From positions 372,001-436,000 of the forward strand of contig AP026138.1 of assembly GCA_030295235.1 (NCBI GenBank): 64,000 nucleotides of DNA. Reading direction: 5' to 3'. The stretch's first letter is position 1. Each line of letters begins with the position of its first letter. Below are positions 24,577 through 41,620 of this stretch, in pieces. Origin of the DNA: Fistulifera solaris (lineage: Eukaryota). The notes beneath the pieces are model-generated. The model was not told where the DNA came from. It ran no database searches and saw only the letters and a list, made by a program, of their open reading frames with translations. Both the position numbers and the translations under genes were made by a program.

Positions 24577-25650
24577 TTGAAATCGAAGCCAGATAGGCTG
24601 TACCAAAACGCGTACAAGTGTACGCCCACAAATCCGAGCCATCGCAGATGGGCCGTTTTGACTTTTTCCAAACCCTCACTCTGTTTTTCAATCCTTCGAC
24701 CACAAGTTACGATGAAAGGATACAAAGATCACGCCAACGATACGATTACCGAGGGTCGCAATCGAGCCAACACATGGTTTGTGAATCGGCTCTTCGACAT
24801 GCTCGAGAACACTGACGCCGACGGCATCTCCGACGTTATTTCTTGGCAACCCCACGGTCGTTGCTTCATCATGCGAGATCAATCCAAATTGCAAGAAATA
24901 CTTCCCAACTTTTTCAAGCAAACGAAGACTTCTTCATTCCTCCGCCAGCTCAACATATACGGCTTTTGTCGGATTGCTCGAGGCCGAGACCGCGGTGGCT
25001 ACTATCACGAGTTGTTTTTGCAAAACAGACGCCATCTGGCACAAAAGATCACTCCCATTAAAATGAAAGCAAACGGCGTGCGTACGAAAGGACCCCAAGA
25101 GCCCAATTTTTGGGAAATGGAGTGGGTCAACTTGCCGAATAAAGTAGATGAAGTACCCCCTTCAAAGGCCATGACACGATCGATGTCAATCGTGTCACAT
25201 GACACAAAAGAGGTAGAAGACACAACTACGAGCACCGAAGAAGAGACAGAAACGTCTGAACAGGAGTGCACTCCAGTGGCTCCAACTGCCGTCAAGATCA
25301 AGAAATTTCATGAGGTGGCGTCACCTCTTTCAGCTCCCCAAGCAATTGAAGATGATATGGAAGACTTATTCGAAATGGTCGGATCGAAACCCTTTCTCCA
25401 TGAGTTTGTGTTGAATGGAAATGGTGTCTTTTTGCTGGATCACGGTATAGATTCAATGATCAATCGTGATCTCACAGCGTCGGAGCCTTCGACAAGTTCA
25501 GAAGTTGGTCATGACGACAGCGCTTACATTGTTGCTGCTCCTGAACTCAACGACAACGACTTGGAGCTTGTGATGCATGACTTTCAAGATGAGTCGGTGG
25601 GACTCGGATTCGACGCTTTTCTTCAGTCCTACGATGAAGAAAGGTATTGA
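24577..25650 (+). CDS. HSF-type DNA-binding transcription factor
   Basis: FVNRLFDML...ISWQPHGRCF...FFKQTKTSSFLRQLNIYGF...GGYYHELF with an acidic C-terminus. The true start is probably the ATG at 24712. Confidence 0.9.
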   Translation: MKSKPDRLYQNAYKCTPTNPSHRRWAVLTFSKPSLCFSILRPQVTMKGYKDHANDTITEGRNRANTWFVNRLFDMLENTDADGISDVISWQPHGRCFIMRDQSKLQEILPNFFKQTKTSSFLRQLNIYGFCRIARGRDRGGYYHELFLQNRRHLAQKITPIKMKANGVRTKGPQEPNFWEMEWVNLPNKVDEVPPSKAMTRSMSIVSHDTKEVEDTTTSTEEETETSEQECTPVAPTAVKIKKFHEVASPLSAPQAIEDDMEDLFEMVGSKPFLHEFVLNGNGVFLLDHGIDSMINRDLTASEPSTSSEVGHDDSAYIVAAPELNDNDLELVMHDFQDESVGLGFDAFLQSYDEERY

Positions 25651-29831: not shown

Positions 29832-30881
29832 ATGTGCTGCCCAACATTGATTCCATCGTCGACCAGAACCAGGTCAATAACAGATTTGGCTTCACTTTCG
29901 GATATATTCGCTCTGATTGATGAGGCCACTGATGAATTGCAACAGGCCGTCATCACCAGTAAACAAAGTCTGCCGATTATACCTACCGAGTCAAATCAAC
30001 TTCGATCAAACCCACGCCTCGTCTCCTCCGATGACGTAACGTCAGCAGTATTCTCGTCCAACAAGCGACAATGTCATCAACGCCGACGCAAGATTTCATC
30101 ACATCGTCGCAGGGAGTCTCACGAGCACGGCACTGTGCAACATTCGTATCATGACTATTCACGGATATCTCCCGAAGCACAAGACTTCTTTGCGTTACCT
30201 CTCAAAGGAGCGCACGGTGGGACCACAATTGCGTTTCCAGTCGTTCTTCACCGCTTACTCACCGACGCTGCCGAGGAAGGCTTCGAAGACATTGTAGCCT
30301 GGCAATCACACGGTCGAGCCTTTCTTGTTCATGACCACGACCGTTTTGTGGCCGAAGTCATGCCTAAATACTTCCGGCAAACTCGCTTTTCCAGTTTCCA
30401 ACGCCAGCTTAGCCTTTACGGCTTCCTTCGATTGACCAAAGGCGCCGACAGTGGTGCCTATTACAATGAATGGTTTCTTCGTGGGTTGCCTCATTTGTGT
30501 ACACACATGCAGCGAACACGAGTGAAAGGCTACGGAGTCCGCCAGTCTTCCTCACCCGAAACAGAACCGGACTTTTACGGGATGGATGCCGTGAGTGCTT
30601 CTCAACAGGGATTAAACGCAGGAACGATACCTATTATTTCGGTTCGGAGCACAGCCTTCGTGCCGGCACCGACGCTATCGTTTGAAGACTTTCCATTCGA
30701 TAGTTTTGAACCTTATCCCGCTACCTTAGATAAGACTTTCGAAGAACAAGAAGCAATGGCAGATTTTCTATCCGATGTTGACCTTGACGACGAAGACTCA
30801 TATCACTTGAGTCAGCCGTACGATGGCGAAGATAGGTTTGCCAAAATCTACAACCACGTTATACATGCACATGCCGTTTGA
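29832..30881 (+). CDS. HSF-type DNA-binding transcription factor
   Basis: FPVVLHRLL...VAWQSHGRAF...YFRQTRFSSFQRQLSLYGF...RTRVKG...PETEPDFY. Confidence 0.92.
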   Translation: MCCPTLIPSSTRTRSITDLASLSDIFALIDEATDELQQAVITSKQSLPIIPTESNQLRSNPRLVSSDDVTSAVFSSNKRQCHQRRRKISSHRRRESHEHGTVQHSYHDYSRISPEAQDFFALPLKGAHGGTTIAFPVVLHRLLTDAAEEGFEDIVAWQSHGRAFLVHDHDRFVAEVMPKYFRQTRFSSFQRQLSLYGFLRLTKGADSGAYYNEWFLRGLPHLCTHMQRTRVKGYGVRQSSSPETEPDFYGMDAVSASQQGLNAGTIPIISVRSTAFVPAPTLSFEDFPFDSFEPYPATLDKTFEEQEAMADFLSDVDLDDEDSYHLSQPYDGEDRFAKIYNHVIHAHAV

Positions 30882-36779: not shown

Positions 36780-38168
36780 TCAATAGGGGCGATCACGCCG
36801 TTGAAAACGCTGATAATTCGCTCCACCGCCCCCGCGGCCTCTACCGCCGTGTGAAAATCCTCCTCGTGCCCCGCCGCCTCTACCGCCGTGCGAAAATCCT
36901 CCCCGTGCCCCGCCTCCTCTACCGCCGTGCGAAAATCCTCCTCGTCCCCCGCCGCGAAAACTACCCGAGTTTGATCGATACGCGCCATGGCCATAAGGTG
37001 CTATAGAATCCGAATGATCGTTTGTCAAGTGTCTATCATCCTGCGGGTATGCATAGTTCCGGTCGTAATCTCCCTGCCGTGAGTGATACGAAGACTCGGC
37101 AGGATACGGCTGTTGATTGTGCGAATTCTCGTAATATGCTTCCTGTCGAGCGACACTGTGTTGTTGCTGTGGATGCATATATGCTTCATTAGAATGAGTC
37201 CCTTCATAATAATCTCCCTGTTGATAATCTCCCCCCTCGTTGTACTGCCCGCCATCATAATATCCTTCGTCGTTGTTTGAATAACCCTGCTGTTCGCCGT
37301 AACCATGATGCGATTGTTGATGACTGTATTCCTGCTCGGTATACCCATGTGTGTCCTGATTGTAACCCCCGACCTCCTCGTAGGATTGCGGATAGTCCTC
37401 GTACCCTCCCGTGGGACCATAATGATCAGCGGCAGCGTATTGATCAGGATAATACTCGGCAGCCGGTGGTTCCGGTTCGTCATAATAGCCACTATCATAA
37501 CTCCGCGGATCGGACGGATAACCGTTGGGTGCATGACTATCGGGCTGAGGGTATCGTGGAGGACCACGCCGCGGAGGTGGGGGAAACGGCCCCGCCGGAT
37601 GCCCATGACGCAATCGAGGTTGATGAGAAGGTCGCACGGGCGGCAAGTCCTCCCCGTTTCGCTGAACTCCGGGAGGAAGGCGCGGAGGCCGTTCCCTCAT
37701 CGGACGGGTTCTCGTCTTGTCATTGCGCTGCAGATAAATTCTCGAAAAATTCGCAAACCGAATGCGAAAATGGTTGCGCACCGAGTATTCTTCGACGCGT
37801 CGATCGGTTTCGGCGTCCATTAAATACAAAAATCCGTATCCCATGGAAACTCCCGTCGTTCTGTTGTAAATGAGCTTCACAAAGTTCACGTTTCCGTAGG
37901 ACTAGAAGGCACAGAATGGAGTGTAAGATTTACACAAGCGTAGAACGAAAAATTCTTATTAATGACTGCTTCTCACCTCAAAGTGTCGACGCATTTCAAG
38001 GGCCGTTACGCTCGGTGGTAGATTGGCCAGAAAGAATTTATATTGTTCGTTCAATGGGCCGCGCGGATGATCCATTTGCGAATCATCGTGAGGACGCAGC
38101 GGCGGTTTCTCGACGCTTTCGGTGCGGGGGGACGCGTCCACTTCTTCTACTTTAATTGGTTGAGACAT
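36780..38168 (-). CDS. RRM RNA-binding protein with a Tyr/Gln/Gly low-complexity region and RGG repeats
   Basis: RNP2-like FFLANLPP and RNP1-like MGYGFLYL; intron at about 37977-37903; C-terminal GGRGGFSHGGRGG repeats ending RDRPY. Confidence 0.8.
36825..36960 (-). repeat. Coding tandem repeat, about 36-bp unit x3 (RGGFSHGGRGGG)
   Basis: gcctctaccgccgtg(c/t)gaaaatcctcc is repeated three times on the + strand. Confidence 0.85.
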
Positions 38169-38783
38169 AATGGATTATTTTAACATGTGATGAATGAATC
38201 TGAAATGAAAGTTCTGTTTTTTTTATAAAAGACATAGTCTTCTACAAACGGACTGAAGATACTTGTATATTATTGTCTTTGTTTTTGGGTCGCGAGTGTT
38301 GCGTGTCATGGTCATTTTCTTTTTCAAACTTTAGCGCGAGCCGAAGGAACGCGACAGAAGCGTGGGTACTGTCTGGGAGAGTCTAAACGAATTGGAAATA
38401 GTAGAACCACGTCACAGCCAGTACATACCAGCGTTACAGACAAGGTAAATTGCGTACACTGCGAAGGACACTCGTTTGAGAGAAAGGTCAAACCTCTTGT
38501 TGGCGAGGAGCAGCCGGCGGCAGACAGCGCGCAGCGTGCAGCGCAACCGTGTATTTTCAAAAGCGCCAAAATGGAACTGCTGTGCAATTCTTGCGCAACT
38601 GTGAATCAAGTGGGTCTATTGTTAACCTCAACGGAGAATTCATTTAATCCGTGTCGAATGCTGTTGAAAGTCATATCCTCTTAAAGGTGAATTATTATTT
38701 GTGAAATGAAATAAGAATTCCAACGCAGCTGCATTCGCTTTTCCTTTATTCACATACACAACAACCAGCTGCGCGGGCATATC

Positions 38784-39902
38784 ATGAATCGTCATCTCGC
38801 CGAATTGGACTTGCACGGTCTCACCAGAGAAAAGGCGATCCGTGCCGTGACCGATTTCATGGAAGACAACAAACGAAAGCACGTGCGGATCATTACGGGT
38901 ACCGGAAGTCACTCGACGCACGGTCCGGTGTTACGCACGGCGGTCGAAAGTTTGTTGACCCGCCGGAAGATGCAGTTTCAAAAAGATAGTGCGGGGAGTT
39001 TTTTGGTGAATTGTGCGTCGGGAGACACCTTTTATCCTCCGGAATCACCCCAAGATACCAAATTGCTCGTGGTCGCATCGGCCGTTCCGCCGCCCCCGCC
39101 CATTCAACGCGCGGTCTCCATTCCGCAATCGTCGTACAGCATTCCTCCCACGCGGACCCGCCGCGTCGTGTCGACGACCCGGATTCGCAATGCCGATGGG
39201 AGTATGGAGGAAACCACGTCCATGGAAGAATTGATTACGAACCAAAACGAGGAGGAGCAAGTGTACGCGGAATGCACGTACGCCGATGAGGCGTATTCGG
39301 CTCCCTGGTTGACGGCCGCAAAGCAGACGGGAGAATCCGATTATTACAAAGCATTAGAGGGTTCGTTGGAAGATTATCGCTTGCAAACCAAGACGAGTGA
39401 GCAGGATTCGGACGAACTGGATAAGGTGTTGCAATTGTCGTTAAAAGCGCACGAGGAACAAGAAATGAGACGAAAAGAGCAAGAACGAGCCGAACTGGAA
39501 AAAGCGATTCAATTATCCGAAAAGATTGCCGCAGAACAAAGGCAAAGGAATGTGATGGAGACCGACGAAGACAAACTATTCCTTATGGCGCTGGAACGCT
39601 CGAAATCGGATACCCAATACAAGTCGGTCGCTGCAGCGGAAGAGGAAGACGAAGAATTGAAGCGGATACTGGAGCTTTCGAAACAAGAAGCACAAATGCT
39701 GCCTCTGGAGCAAGACGACGAAGAGGAATTGCTGCGGAAAATTCTCGAAGAATCCAAGGCCCTGTCACGCAGCGAAACTCTTCCCGATCGCGAACTGGAA
39801 GACGCGATTCGACGTGCGATGGAACAATCACTAGAAGAAGAACGAAAGCAACGGGAAGAAGAGGAATTGTTGCAACAAGTGTTACGAATGAGTATGAGAT
39901 AG
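38784..39902 (+). CDS. Smr-domain protein with a C-terminal array of UIM-like motifs
   Basis: ELDLHGLT...VRIITGTGSHS...GPVLR (Smr), followed by repeated acidic-L-x-x-[A/V/I]-L-x-x-S helices. Confidence 0.85.
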   Translation: MNRHLAELDLHGLTREKAIRAVTDFMEDNKRKHVRIITGTGSHSTHGPVLRTAVESLLTRRKMQFQKDSAGSFLVNCASGDTFYPPESPQDTKLLVVASAVPPPPPIQRAVSIPQSSYSIPPTRTRRVVSTTRIRNADGSMEETTSMEELITNQNEEEQVYAECTYADEAYSAPWLTAAKQTGESDYYKALEGSLEDYRLQTKTSEQDSDELDKVLQLSLKAHEEQEMRRKEQERAELEKAIQLSEKIAAEQRQRNVMETDEDKLFLMALERSKSDTQYKSVAAAEEEDEELKRILELSKQEAQMLPLEQDDEEELLRKILEESKALSRSETLPDRELEDAIRRAMEQSLEEERKQREEEELLQQVLRMSMR

Positions 39903-40307
39903 TCGGAAAAAACTTTCTTTTCTTTCTTTGGGTGCTCGGCATAACCTAAATTCACTATCATTTTAGTGAATACCTAACAAATAGATATGTGTCCTTTGTT
40001 CAATATTTTATAGTCACTTCAGGTAGAGACTCATTTTGTAGTCATCCTATTGTTCTTGGTTAGCTGAAACGTCGTGCATCGATAGTTGCACCCGGTAGCC
40101 CTAGCTCTATGCACTTTTACACTTACAAAATTTCTGTGGAAACGTTTTGATGACGACGCGTATGACGACGTTATTACTCGTATACAAAACGAGAAAACAA
40201 AAAAATTAACAAAAAACAACTCATTCACAACGAAAGAAGTCAACAATACGAAAGGAAAATCTGATTAGAGTAATCATATCAATCACAAACGCCTTTTCGA
40301 CGTTCAA

Positions 40308-41620
40308 ATGGTTCGACTGAATCTTATATGTTGCACCTTGCTAGCGAATGGTCTATTCTTTCTCGGCCAAGGTTTCGCACTGGCTTTCTCTCCTTCTGTC
40401 TCCTCGATCCGCTCGAACGGTGTCGCCCTTTTCGCTACCGAAACATCGCAACAGTTGCAAAGCAGTGTTGATCAGCTGAAAAAGGTATTAGCGCGAGAAT
40501 ATGTGTCGTTCTTTAATCCAATGGAGAAACAATACTACAGCTCGGATGTCACATTCCAAGATCCGTTAACGTCGCTGGCCGGTATTGACAAATATCAAGA
40601 CAATGTCGACATGTTGTCGGGTCGAACTTTGTTAGGATCAATCTTATTCTCCGATGCCAGCATCAATTTACATTCGGTGAAAGGTGGTGACATTTCCGTG
40701 GATTCACAGGGGACCACCCAGATCTCTGACATTGTCACGCGTTGGACCTTGCGCTTTTGCTTTAAAGCTCTGCCCTGGAAGCCGACAGCACGGTTTTCGG
40801 GGATTTCCGTCTATCAAGTGCGAACTGGTGGATCCGAAGGAGTGCAGATTGTTCAACAGAACGATTATTGGGACTCCATCAACTTGCAATCCGATGGGAC
40901 GTACCGAGCAGTCGACAAATCGGTGGGCTTGTCCGATTTTTTGGATCAGCTGAAACCAAGCGATATCAATGCTCCATCGGCTGGACCGGAACTGCCGTTT
41001 GAGCTTTTGAGACGAGGCAATGGATATGAGGTACGACGATATCCGCAATATAGTGCTGCTAAACTAGCATACGAGAGACGCGATGAAGGATACAGTATTT
41101 TGGGGAGTTTTTGCAAAGGTAAGACGATCATTACCACTAGTTGTGTAGAATCTAAATTAAGGTGCTTGCCGTATTCGTGCGGTGACTCACAAGTATGCCT
41201 CTTTCGCCATTGTACATCAGGTCTTCAACCAATGGCACCAGCCATACTTACTGTTGATTCGCAAAAGGACCAAAAATCCATGATGTGGCCCCTGACGTTT
41301 GCTCGACCAGGGCAAACGTTTGAAGTCCCGCCTACGAACAATCGAGAAGGACGAGGTGTAGAGATGGTTGTGATGCCGTCATCCGTCGTTGCCGTAGCCC
41401 GGTTTTCCGATGCGAGTGTGGAACCAGTGGTACGAAAAGCGACCAACTTGCTTCGCAATGCGTGCGAACGTGACGGCTTAAAGCTGACCAGGAGTGAAGC
41501 TCTGCAGTTTTGTCAATACGATGCCATTTTTAGTATGGGAAAGCGAAGGGGTGAAGTTTGGATCCCCTCTCGATGATGACAATCCGTGGAACCAAAGCGC
41601 GGATACGTTGAAATAATAGT
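40308..41620 (+). CDS. Plastid-targeted SnoaL-like (DUF2358) plus SOUL haem-binding protein
   Basis: ALA-FSP presequence; YSSDVTFQDPL...RWTLRF...QNDYWDS; then GYEVRRYP...VAVARFS...QYD...RRGEVWIP. Intron at about 41119-41220; indel near 41570, so the 3' end is approximate. Confidence 0.75.

What the first reader, a model, noticed from the sequence alone, without database searches (positions are those of the whole stretch)
38784..39902. Smr nuclease fused to an array of about 7 ubiquitin-interacting motifs: candidate UIM-based no-go-decay endonuclease
Seen: an N-terminal Smr domain with intact LDLHG and IITGxGxHS motifs, a Pro/Thr linker, then DELDKVLQLSLK, ELEKAIQLSEK, KLFLMALERSKS, EELKRILELSKQE, ELLRKILEESKA, DAIRRAMEQSLEE and ELLQQVLRMSMR. 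Known: yeast Cue2 and C. elegans NONU-1 couple ubiquitin-binding CUE domains to a C-terminal Smr domain to cut mRNA on ubiquitylated collided ribosomes. Inference: this protein reverses the order and uses a multivalent UIM array suited to reading polyubiquitin chains, which would be a convergent solution. I do not know of a characterised protein with this architecture.
Basis: partly seen in the sequence, partly recalled or inferred. Interest (0 to 1): 0.75.

Follow-up and report, generated by a model that had tools for sequence, protein, structure and literature searches.

The report
Diatom Smr nuclease with UIM array
A diatom gene encodes a small RNA/DNA-cutting Smr domain followed by a long helical rod with seven or eight ubiquitin-binding motifs. 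It is probably a diatom version of the nuclease that cuts mRNA on ubiquitin-marked stalled ribosomes, a kind of fusion already noted in print but never tested.

Summary
ORF 38784..39902 (+) encodes 372 aa. It has an N-terminal Smr domain (Pfam 43 bits; LDLHG and ITGTGSHS present; the model's best fold match is the human N4BP2 Smr domain), a disordered Pro-rich linker, and seven UIM-like motifs every 21-28 residues, plus an eighth candidate upstream.

Evidence that the motifs are UIMs:
- 7 motifs were found against 0.31 expected in shuffles.
- A profile of the seven repeats finds only solved UIM chains as its 11 best PDB hits.
- The last two motifs, scanned alone, pass Pfam's UIM cut-off.
- Motif core positions are conserved far above the linkers.

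The whole protein does not reach Pfam's UIM cut-off, and four motifs carry V or I at the Ala position.

The gene belongs to a large family: 217 cluster representatives, and 141 of 158 examined proteins have at least 3 motifs. Every named member is a diatom.

A ubiquitin-guided, Cue2/NONU-1-like endonuclease is the best reading, but ubiquitin binding, nuclease activity and ribosome association are all inferred. The architecture is not unknown: two papers already list UIM among the domains fused to eukaryotic Smr proteins, and my searches found no paper that tests such a protein. Verdict: a new member of a known kind, of moderate interest.

The parts
38784..39902 (+). Complete single-exon coding sequence, 372 aa plus stop (protein P0001)
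   Evidence: ORF list and translation. Homologues of 56-84% identity are colinear from the first residues to the last. Contigs of four runs lie colinear on it with no joint inside the ORF.
38805..39023 (+). Smr domain, residues 8-80 (beta-alpha-beta-alpha-beta-beta)
   Evidence: Pfam PF01713 43 bits. AF2 model pLDDT about 90. Foldseek best hits are the N4BP2 Smr domain (2d9i, E 4.4e-5; also 3fau, 2vkc), then the MutS2 Smr domain (4och, 2zqe). phmmer against PDB gives N4BP2, E 0.015.
38805..38819 (+). LDLHG (DxH motif), residues 8-12
   Evidence: Seen in the sequence. D9, L10, H11 and G12 are invariant in 20 homologues. The motif aligns with LDLHG of N4BP2.
38889..38915 (+). IITGTGSHS (GxG motif), residues 36-44
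   Evidence: Seen in the sequence. T38, G39, G41, H43 and S44 are invariant in 20 homologues. [TS]GxGxHS occurs in 131 of 139 family members. The x is S or T in 113 of 133, where N4BP2 has R.
39054..39062 (+). Conserved D-T-K motif, residues 91-93, about 10 residues past the Smr fold, in a stretch modelled as disordered
   Evidence: D91, T92 and K93 are invariant or at least 90% conserved. D[TS][KR] is found in 110 of 139 family members. pLDDT is below 50 from residue 87. Function unknown.
39036..39323 (+). Pro/Thr/Ser-rich linker, residues 85-180
   Evidence: pLDDT is below 50 for residues 87-129 and 147-180; a weakly supported beta-hairpin lies at 130-146. The stretch is conserved only among the closest homologues.
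39330..39377 (+). Candidate UIM 0, residues 183-198 (A190, S194)
   Evidence: A190 and S194 are at least 90% conserved in 20 homologues. It lies at the start of the long helix 180-303, 25 residues before motif 1. No Pfam hit.
39399..39452 (+). UIM-like motif 1, residues 206-223 (V215, S219)
   Evidence: S219 is invariant in 20 homologues. No Pfam UIM hit.
39477..39530 (+). UIM-like motif 2, residues 232-249 (A241, S245)
   Evidence: Canonical Ala and Ser. UIM_2 15.1 bits in a 51-aa piece.
39561..39614 (+). UIM-like motif 3, residues 260-277 (A269, S273)
   Evidence: Canonical Ala and Ser. No Pfam hit. Aligned only in the closer homologues.
39639..39692 (+). UIM-like motif 4, residues 286-303 (I295, S299)
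   Evidence: Pfam UIM 16.6 bits and UIM_2 15.4 bits as a 24-aa piece. S299 is invariant in 20 homologues. It aligns without gaps with RAP80 UIM1.
39714..39767 (+). UIM-like motif 5, residues 311-328 (I320, S324)
   Evidence: RAP80_UIM 13 bits; 17.3 bits together with motif 4. It aligns with RAP80 UIM2. It forms a separate helix, 312-329.
39789..39842 (+). UIM-like motif 6, residues 336-353 (A345, S349)
   Evidence: Pfam UIM 16.6 bits. Together with motif 7 it scores 26.2 bits, above the 21-bit cut-off.
39852..39899 (+). UIM-like motif 7, residues 357-372 (V366, S370), at the C-terminus
   Evidence: Pfam UIM 19.3 bits; 26.2 bits together with motif 6.
38706..40003 (+). Span covered by contigs of three runs whose kind is only guessed to be RNA (possible transcript extent)
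   Evidence: pieces of X2 (38706-39283, 39254-40003), X3 (38714-39126, 39254-39960) and X4 (38873-39114, 39254-39686, 39657-40003). This is a weak hint only: the kind of library is not on record.

Best explanation
This is a real, intronless nuclear gene of a pennate diatom; the closest named relative is Fistulifera solaris. It encodes a soluble protein with no room for a targeting peptide before the Smr domain. The protein has two working parts. One is an N-terminal Smr (IF3-C-fold) nuclease domain that keeps the DxH and GxG motifs. The other is a C-terminal rod of long alpha-helices with seven or eight ubiquitin-interacting motifs spaced 21-28 residues apart. A flexible Pro-rich linker joins the two. 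Proposed mechanism (inferred): the UIM array binds several ubiquitins of a chain, or of a multiply ubiquitylated particle, with avidity. The most likely target is ribosomal proteins ubiquitylated on collided ribosomes. The array thereby tethers the Smr domain, which then cuts the mRNA at the stalled ribosomes. That would make it a functional analogue of yeast Cue2 and worm NONU-1, with the ubiquitin reader built from UIMs instead of CUE/UBA domains and placed after the nuclease. Shown here: the domain identities, the fold, motif conservation, family size and restriction of the named members to diatoms. Inferred: ubiquitin binding, RNA cleavage, and the ribosome as the site of action.
For: Smr domain: Pfam 43 bits. 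The model's best PDB fold matches are the N4BP2 Smr domain, E 4.4e-5, TM 0.68-0.79 by target. N4BP2 is also the best sequence match, E 0.015. D9, H11, G39, G41, H43, S44, R51 and R61 are invariant in 20 homologues. [TS]GxGxHS is present in 131 of 139 family members.

UIM array: 7 motifs against 0.31 expected, with 0 of 10,000 shuffles reaching 7. A profile made only from the seven repeats, searched against 177,635 PDB sequences, listed 17 hits at E<=10. The best 11 are all UIM chains: Vps27 (1q0w, E 1.8e-4), ataxin-3, ANKRD13D, ZFAND2B, RAP80 and USP25. The ANKRD13D chain has Ile at the Ala position, as motifs 4 and 5 do. The 173-aa tail hits the RAP80 tandem UIM without gaps, E 0.007. The piece holding motifs 6 and 7 scores 26.2 bits against Pfam's 21-bit cut-off. 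Relatives P0112 (UIM 22.3) and P0086 (UIM_2 24.4) pass the cut-off, and P0086 has precomputed PF23625+PF01713.

Family logo of 817 repeats: positions the regex did not fix match the UIM consensus. E is 57% at -11, D/E 62% at -10 and D/E 53% at +3, against a tail background of E 14% and D 6%. At -4, which the regex limits to A, V, I, L, M or T, Ala makes up 62%. Core motif positions are 54% identical across 20 homologues against 28% for the rest of the tail; 0 of 10,000 random position sets reached that.

Structure and family: AF2 puts the motifs on long helices, 180-303, 312-329 and 334-371. In relative P0012, 12 motifs lie on helices 228-384, 389-451 and 456-519. 141 of 158 examined family proteins have at least 3 motifs after the Smr domain; the 14 with none are all 240 aa or shorter. 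The median N-terminal extension before the Smr domain is 18 residues.

Literature: Cue2 couples ubiquitin binding to an Smr nuclease in no-go decay, and D348, H350 and R402 matter for cleavage (PMC6598757, passages; PMC9841427, abstract; review PMC11806357, passages). Two papers say that eukaryotic Smr proteins are fused to UIMs.
Against: Pfam does not call UIM on the whole protein (9 bits against 21). None of the 19 homologues scanned whole reaches the cut-off either. Motifs 0, 1 and 3 give no Pfam UIM-type hit. Four of the seven motifs have V or I at the Ala position that packs on ubiquitin.

The x of GxG is Thr here, and S or T in 113 of 133 family members, where N4BP2 has Arg. The review words Cue2 R402 as belonging to the GxG motif, and R402A weakens cleavage while R402K does not. 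The diatom enzyme may therefore lack a basic residue that matters, unless invariant R51 or R61 substitutes. I could not place R402 in an alignment.

An Smr domain can act on collided ribosomes without cutting, as B. subtilis MutS2 does (review). Smr domains of MutS2 and N4BP2 are also linked to DNA (entry titles; in vitro nicking is recalled). No data here bear on localisation, ribosome binding or the presence of a Hel2/ZNF598 ligase. The family is well separated from other Smr clades: phmmer against 1.84 billion representatives gave only 217 hits at E<=0.001, and those examined are nearly all of this architecture. Orthology to Cue2/NONU-1 is therefore unproven.
Confidence: 0.55

Rival explanations
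1. A ubiquitin-guided nuclease that acts on DNA or chromatin rather than on ribosomes. The UIM rod would read K63-type ubiquitin marks at damaged chromatin, as the RAP80 tandem UIM does, and the Smr domain would nick DNA.
For: The best sequence match of the tail in PDB is the RAP80 tandem UIM, ungapped and with the same 25-residue Ser-to-Ser spacing. Three of the seven intervals are exactly 25 residues, which equals 37.5 A. That is the distance given for the RAP80 ruler (PMC2735176, whole text). Smr domains also occur in MutS2. DNA-nicking activity of N4BP2 and MutS2 Smr domains is recalled, not checked here.
Against: Current work places eukaryotic Smr proteins (Cue2, NONU-1) and bacterial SmrB and MutS2 on collided ribosomes. 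One relative in the family (P0070) carries a KH RNA-binding domain. No DNA-binding domain or obvious nuclear signal was found by Pfam. RAP80_UIM stays below its cut-off: 17.3 bits against 27.3.
Confidence: 0.12
2. The UIMs work mainly in cis or in another ubiquitin pathway. They might promote the protein's own (coupled) ubiquitylation and so switch the nuclease on or off. Or they might dock it to proteasomal, endosomal or autophagic ubiquitin or ATG8 signals, with RNA or DNA cleavage unrelated to ribosome collisions.
For: A Leishmania Smr protein is reported by title to have its RNA endonuclease activity modulated by ubiquitination (Bhandari 2011; reference lists only; paper not read). An abstract seen in the listing (PMC2951365) states that UIMs promote ubiquitination as well as binding ubiquitin. 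The best single PDB hits are endosomal or proteasome-linked UIMs: Vps27, ANKRD13D, ZFAND2B.
Against: Arrays of 4-12 motifs at regular spacing on rigid helices look built for avidity towards chains or multiply marked particles. One or two UIMs would be enough for a cis switch.
Confidence: 0.13
3. The Smr domain is a non-cutting ribosome or RNA-binding module, as in B. subtilis MutS2. The protein would then be a ubiquitin-dependent adaptor or sensor rather than a nuclease.
For: MutS2 binds collided ribosomes through its Smr domain without cleaving mRNA (review PMC11806357). The GxG middle residue is S or T in 113 of 133 members rather than the Arg of N4BP2.
Against: According to the review, Firmicute MutS2 lacks the DxH residues wholly or partly. 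Here D9 and H11 are invariant in 20 homologues, which points to retained chemistry.
Confidence: 0.1
4. The helices do not bind ubiquitin. They would be a charged single alpha-helix or coiled-coil spacer whose E/L/S periodicity merely resembles UIMs.
For: The tail is 22% Glu and rich in L, R, K and Q. The whole protein scores 9 bits for UIM. Four motifs lack Ala. My regex also matched once inside the Smr domain (residue 49), so the pattern alone is not specific.
Against: The Ser is invariant or nearly so in six of the eight motifs across homologues of 29-88% identity. Core positions are conserved well above the linkers. The profile search returns only UIM chains at the top. The unforced acidic positions match the UIM consensus. 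One piece and two relatives pass Pfam's cut-off.
Confidence: 0.08

Closest known systems
Yeast Cue2 (CUE x3, UBA, C-terminal Smr), the no-go-decay endonuclease
   Same: It pairs a ubiquitin-binding module with an Smr domain that has the DxH and GxG motifs. This is the expected logic of recruitment to ubiquitylated collided ribosomes.
   Different: The diatom protein has no CUE or UBA domain. Its Smr domain is N-terminal. Its reader is an array of 7-8 short helical UIMs. Its GxG middle residue is Thr. Orthology is not shown.
C. elegans NONU-1 and human N4BP2 (PNK-like kinase, CUE, Smr)
   Same: The N4BP2 Smr domain is the nearest solved structure, both by sequence (E 0.015) and by fold (E 4.4e-5). 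Glover et al. state that NONU-1 homologues occur fused to UIM domains.
   Different: The diatom protein has no kinase domain and no CUE, and the domain order is reversed. It is much smaller, at 372 aa. The sequence similarity is weak.
RAP80 (UIMC1) tandem UIM 'molecular ruler'
   Same: The alignment of motifs 4-5 is ungapped, with the identical 25-residue (37.5 A) spacing. The motifs are embedded in long helices.
   Different: RAP80 has two UIMs; this protein has 7-8, and relatives have up to 12. Only one of the three 25-residue intervals (UIM 0-1) lies in an uninterrupted predicted helix; the other two contain Pro-linked breaks. The family's modal spacing is 22 residues, not 25. RAP80_UIM stays below Pfam's cut-off. 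RAP80 has no nuclease.
E. coli SmrB / B. subtilis MutS2 (bacterial Smr collision factors)
   Same: Both use an Smr domain as the module that acts at collided ribosomes. The DxH and GxG motifs are shared with SmrB. MutS2 Smr domains are among the fold hits.
   Different: The bacterial proteins find collisions directly, through an N-terminal hook or KOW and clamp domains, without ubiquitin.
DUF1771-Smr proteins (Ypl199c-like)
   Same: They are small eukaryotic Smr proteins, and they are among the nearest Atlas structure clusters. Glover et al. describe a variable-length charged region in that clade.
   Different: No DUF1771 hit appears even at E<=10. In the diatom protein the charged region is a regular UIM array placed after the Smr domain.

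Membership tests
Smr domain (Pfam PF01713) | Profile score above the curated cut-off | tested here: met
   43 bits against 25.7, E 5.1e-11, residues 8-62.
Smr domain (Pfam PF01713) | DxH motif (LDLHG) and GxG motif (TGxGxHS) | tested here: met
   L8-G12 and T38-S44 are present, invariant in 20 homologues, and aligned to the same motifs of N4BP2.
Smr domain (Pfam PF01713) | IF3-C-like alpha/beta fold | tested here: met
   AF2 pLDDT is about 90 over residues 10-80. The best Foldseek hits are N4BP2 and MutS2 Smr domains; IF3-C (1tig) appears lower in the list.
Smr domain (Pfam PF01713) | Endonuclease activity | not testable with these tools
   Needs a biochemical assay.
UIM (Pfam PF02809 / PF23625) | Profile score above the curated cut-off (21 bits) on the whole protein | tested here: not met
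   9 bits. 0 of the 19 homologues scanned whole reach it. 2 of 20 longer relatives do: P0112 at 22.3 and P0086 (UIM_2) at 24.4.
UIM (Pfam PF02809 / PF23625) | Profile score above the cut-off on isolated motif pieces | tested here: inconclusive
   The 41-aa piece with motifs 6 and 7 scores 26.2 bits. Single motifs score 13-19.3 bits, and motifs 0, 1 and 3 give none.
UIM (Pfam PF02809 / PF23625) | Consensus: acidic run, Phi-x-x-Ala-Phi-x-x-Ser-x-x-acidic (consensus recalled) | tested here: inconclusive
   Ser is present in 8 of 8 motifs. Ala is present in 4 of 8 (motifs 0, 2, 3, 6) and V or I in the other 4. In the family logo Ala is 62%, V 19% and I 11%, and the acidic flanks are strongly enriched. 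The solved ANKRD13D UIM chain has Ile at this position.
UIM (Pfam PF02809 / PF23625) | Similarity to experimentally solved UIMs | tested here: met
   The repeat profile's best 11 of 17 PDB hits are all UIM chains; the best E is 1.8e-4.
UIM (Pfam PF02809 / PF23625) | Binds the Ile44 patch of ubiquitin | not testable with these tools
   No usable computational answer was obtained (see Tried and rejected). Needs a binding assay.
Cue2 / NONU-1 / N4BP2 no-go-decay endonucleases | CUE (and UBA) ubiquitin-binding domains N-terminal to a C-terminal Smr domain | tested here: not met
   Pfam finds no CUE or UBA hit at E<=10, and the Smr domain is at residues 8-80.
Cue2 / NONU-1 / N4BP2 no-go-decay endonucleases | Smr domain orthologous to that of Cue2/NONU-1 | tested here: inconclusive
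   N4BP2 is the nearest solved Smr domain, but only weakly (E 0.015; fold E 4.4e-5).
Cue2 / NONU-1 / N4BP2 no-go-decay endonucleases | Hel2/ZNF598-dependent cleavage of mRNA at collided ribosomes | not testable with these tools
   Needs genetics and biochemistry. No genome is held for this window, so even the presence of the ligase could not be checked.
RAP80-type tandem UIM (Pfam PF18282) | Profile score above the cut-off (27.3 bits) | tested here: not met
   17.3 bits for motifs 4-5. Relatives score 15.0 and 18.1.
RAP80-type tandem UIM (Pfam PF18282) | Two UIMs 37.5 A apart on one contiguous helix, facing the same way | tested here: inconclusive
   A spacing of 25 residues (37.5 A, phase -20 degrees) occurs in 3 of 7 intervals. 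Only UIM 0-1 lies in an unbroken predicted helix.

The most novel reading that the evidence does not exclude
Diatoms have replaced, or supplemented, the CUE-based reader of the no-go-decay nuclease with a rigid helical 'ruler' that carries 4-12 UIMs at fixed 22- or 25-residue steps. These would be the longest natural UIM arrays I know of (from memory). The nuclease would then fire only on long chains of a particular linkage, or on arrays of ubiquitylated ribosomes, with K63 chains suggested by the RAP80-like 37.5 A step. In effect the protein would measure chain length or collision-queue length before committing an mRNA to decay.
Probability: 0.22. Interest if true: 0.65.

Novelty: new member of a known kind. 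Interest (0 to 1): 0.4.

Why it matters
No-go decay and ribosome quality control have been studied almost only in yeast, worms and mammals, where the nuclease reads ubiquitin through CUE/UBA domains. This gene shows that a major algal lineage carries a conserved nuclease of the same logic built from a different, highly multivalent reader.

If the function holds, it offers three things:
- an entry point to translation surveillance in diatoms, where my searches found no paper on this protein family;
- a natural test of how UIM number and spacing set ubiquitin-chain length and linkage preference;
- a compact (about 190 aa), all-helical polyubiquitin binder that could serve as a reagent.

It also shows that Pfam under-calls UIM arrays in Glu-rich tails. 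That is why the family members whose source names I saw are labelled only 'Smr domain-containing' or 'hypothetical protein'.

Tried and rejected
1. Complex prediction of the tail (residues 180-372) with a canonical ubiquitin (P0164, Pfam ubiquitin 114.6 bits). The score was 0.00 against a mark of 0.34, the controls were not run, and the alignment I supplied was not used. This gives no verdict and is not evidence either way.

2. Expression. No listed holder is on record as RNA. Four runs from a single study hold the stretch, and their kind is guessed. X2-X4 contigs lie on 38706-40003 with nothing laid between 38156 and 38523 or from 40180 to 40363.

3. Whole-genome questions: other Smr paralogues, a CUE-Smr gene, Hel2/ZNF598, the organism's own ubiquitin. 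No genome is held. A ubiquitin motif pattern found nothing in the window.

4. A search with the Smr region alone (residues 1-100) returned only 12 proteins, all of the same family, and no named outgroup. The 'longer' search returned one protein, P0086. This is weak evidence that larger fused forms are rare.

5. Protein Atlas. There was no usable hit by features. Structure rows were Smr clusters with DUF1771, CUE or KH, or bacterial ones, all at low TM and none with UIM.

6. Earlier findings of this scan: nothing by place, words or sequence.

7. Antisense ORFs 39509..39961 and 39583..39942 (-) are Ser-rich mirror images of the Glu-rich frame. I rejected them as genes.

8. The neighbour ORFs 36780..37889 and 37959..38168 (-) looked to me like two halves of an RRM. 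Pfam gave no hit at E<=1 on either piece.

9. My first regex also matched inside the Smr helix (residue 49). Later counts were restricted to the tail.

10. Literature. Searches found no experimental paper on an Smr-UIM protein or on a diatom Smr protein of this kind. Figures, including Glover's Fig. S3C, which shows in which lineage the UIM fusion was seen, are not held. bioRxiv supplements are closed.
Full report
**What is in the sequence.**
The window has about 47% G+C. Its ORFs carry eukaryotic domains: HSF, URO-D, SOUL, RING, ankyrin and MIF. The closest named relative of the protein in question is a hypothetical protein of the diatom Fistulifera solaris, at 84% identity.

Homologues of 56-84% identity start and end at the same places. 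Contigs of four public runs lie on it colinearly with no joint inside the ORF. I therefore take it as a complete single-exon gene. No whole genome is held for this window, so paralogues and pathway partners could not be examined.

**The Smr domain.**
- Pfam Smr scores 43 bits against a 25.7-bit cut-off, over residues 8-62.
- LDLHG (residues 8-12) and IITGTGSHS (36-44) are present. D9, L10, H11, G12, T38, G39, G41, H43, S44, R51 and R61 are invariant in an alignment of 20 homologues.
- Across the wider family, [TS]GxGxHS occurs in 131 of 139 proteins that have the DxHG motif and enough sequence after it.
- An AlphaFold2 model built on that alignment gives a confident beta-alpha-beta-alpha-beta-beta domain for residues 1-80.
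- Its best PDB fold matches are the Smr domain of human N4BP2 (2d9i, E 4.4e-5; also 3fau, 2vkc), followed by MutS2 Smr domains. N4BP2 is also the only solved protein found by sequence, at E 0.015.
- One difference may matter. The middle residue of GxG is Thr here, and Ser or Thr in 113 of 133 family members, where N4BP2 has Arg. A review describes Cue2 R402 as part of the GxG motif (PMC11806357). R402A weakens cleavage and R402K does not (PMC6598757). I could not align Cue2 itself, so the equivalence is not established.

**The linker.**
Residues 85-180 are Pro/Ser/Thr-rich and modelled with pLDDT below 50, apart from a weak hairpin at 130-146. A short D-T-K motif (residues 91-93) just past the domain is conserved in 110 of 139 family members as D[TS][KR]. 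Its role is unknown.

**The repeats.**
- The pattern Phi-x-x-[AVILM]-Phi-x-x-S occurs 7 times in residues 190-372, against a mean of 0.31 in 10,000 shuffles. None of the shuffles reached 7.
- An eighth candidate (residues 183-198; A190 and S194 at least 90% conserved) precedes them by 25 residues.
- Pfam is equivocal. The whole protein scores 9 bits against a 21-bit cut-off.
- As 24-aa pieces, motifs 4, 6 and 7 score 16.6, 16.6 and 19.3 bits, motif 5 scores 13 bits for RAP80_UIM, and motifs 1-3 give no UIM hit.
- In a longer piece, motif 2 scores 15.1 bits for UIM_2. The 41-residue piece with motifs 6 and 7 scores 26.2 bits, E 6e-6, above the cut-off. Motif 0 scores nothing.

Stronger evidence comes from four tests:
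- A profile built only from the seven repeats and searched against all 177,635 distinct PDB sequences listed 17 hits at E<=10. The best 11 are all solved UIM chains: Vps27 (E 1.8e-4), ataxin-3, ANKRD13D, ZFAND2B, RAP80 and USP25. The ANKRD13D chain has Ile at the 'Ala' position, like motifs 4 and 5.
- The 173-residue tail alone finds the RAP80 tandem UIM at E 0.007, in a 41-residue ungapped alignment that covers motifs 4 and 5.
- Across 20 homologues, the four core positions of the eight motifs are 54% identical against 28% for the rest of the tail. None of 10,000 random position sets reached that.
- In 817 repeats collected from 158 family proteins, positions my regex did not constrain reproduce the UIM consensus, which I give from memory. 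E is 57% at -11, D/E 62% at -10 and D/E 53% at +3, against a tail background of 14% E and 6% D. At -4, which the regex limits to A, V, I, L, M or T, Ala makes up 62%, V 19% and I 11%.

I conclude that these are UIM-type motifs. Pfam under-calls them in a Glu-rich context.

**Shape of the array.**
The model puts motifs 0-4 on one 124-residue helix (180-303; pLDDT above 90 for 190-260), motif 5 on helix 312-329, and motifs 6-7 on helix 334-371. The breaks fall at Pro-containing linkers.

A distant relative with 12 motifs (P0012) is modelled as three long helices, 228-384, 389-451 and 456-519.

Ser-to-Ser spacings here are 25, 26, 28, 26, 25, 25 and 21 residues. The family mode is 22 residues (176 intervals), followed by 25-26 (138 intervals). 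Twenty-five residues of helix equal 37.5 A, the distance named for the RAP80 'molecular ruler' that selects K63-linked chains (PMC2735176, whole text). Only the 0-1 interval combines that spacing with an unbroken predicted helix, so a K63 preference is a lead and no more.

**The family.**
- phmmer of the protein against 1.84 billion cluster representatives gave 217 hits at E<=0.001, of which 108 were at E<=1e-10.
- Of the 158 proteins in hand (20 plus the listed representatives), 143 have the DxHG motif and 141 have at least 3 UIM-like motifs after the Smr domain. The 14 with none are all 240 aa or shorter and look like fragments.
- The Smr domain is N-terminal throughout, with a median of 18 residues before it. 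This leaves no room for a targeting peptide in most members.
- Every member that carries a species name is a diatom, pennate or centric: Fistulifera, Epithemia, Amphora, Cylindrotheca, Chaetoceros (two species), Gedaniella, Thalassiosira (two species), Cyclotella and Stephanocyclus. One further name is cut off at 'Helico'. That all these genera are diatoms is partly from my own knowledge.
- Several members come from MMETSP records. I recall these as transcriptomes, which would mean the family is expressed.
- Two of 20 longer relatives pass Pfam's UIM or UIM_2 cut-off. One has a KH domain and one a UvrD-helicase fragment.

**Function.**
The best-supported reading is a ubiquitin-guided Smr endonuclease. 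The background is as follows:
- Cue2 and NONU-1 pair ubiquitin-binding domains with an Smr nuclease to cut mRNA at collided, Hel2-ubiquitylated ribosomes.
- Bacterial SmrB does the same job without ubiquitin.
- Hel2 builds K63-linked chains on uS10 (review).

The diatom protein keeps the catalytic motifs under selection and carries a multivalent reader that suits chains or multiply marked particles. Binding, cleavage and the ribosome as target are all inferred. I put this reading at 0.55.

The rivals are a chromatin- or DNA-directed nuclease (0.12), a cis-regulatory or other ubiquitin-pathway role (0.13), a non-cutting Smr adaptor like MutS2 (0.10), and helices that do not bind ubiquitin (0.08).

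**Comparison and novelty.**
By architecture the protein is not a member of the Cue2/NONU-1/N4BP2 group. It has no CUE or UBA domain and the domain order is reversed. It may still work like them.

The fusion of Smr with UIMs has already been mentioned twice in print, as a list item in comparative analyses. I could not see the figure that shows in which lineage. Five literature searches found no experimental work on such a protein, or on diatom proteins of this family.

I therefore rate it a new member of a known kind. What is added here is the size and regularity of the array, its rod-like prediction, the RAP80-like step, and the apparent diatom-wide distribution. Interest is moderate, at 0.4.

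Noticed in passing
window 39054-39062 (residues 91-93): A D-T-K motif about 10 residues past the Smr fold is conserved in 110 of 139 family members (as D[TS][KR]), although the stretch is modelled as disordered. It may be a short docking motif, comparable in role to the ribosome-binding extensions of other Smr proteins.
   Followed up: partly
window 39254-39283: Contigs of all four runs break here with a 30-base overlap. In X2-X4 the depth rises about five-fold from this point to the 3' end (about 21 to 106), but in X1 it does not. This could be a shared word with a second (homeologous) gene copy, or 3'-biased RNA coverage. It is not resolved.
   Followed up: no
window 36780-37889 (-) and 37959-38168 (-): This is a divergently oriented neighbour. 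It has a Tyr/Gln/Gly-rich low-complexity protein that ends in RGG repeats. An upstream small ORF and the start of the large one looked to me like the two halves of an RRM split by an intron. Pfam found nothing on either piece.
   Followed up: partly
window 40308-41576 (+): The downstream neighbour encodes a DUF2358 plus SOUL haem-binding domain protein.
   Followed up: no
window 24577-25650 (+) and 29832-30881 (+): Two HSF-type DNA-binding domain genes lie within 6 kb of each other.
   Followed up: no
relatives P0070 and P0046: One family member carries a KH_1 RNA-binding domain after the Smr domain, which fits an RNA substrate. Another carries a UvrD-helicase N-terminal fragment; this may be a gene-call fusion on a metagenome contig.
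   Followed up: no
window 38217-38567: One X1 contig differs from the window by four small indels in the intergenic region upstream of the gene: 1 base left out at 38217, G put in behind 38342, CAG behind 38524, and A behind 38567. This suggests allelic or homeologous variation.
   Followed up: no
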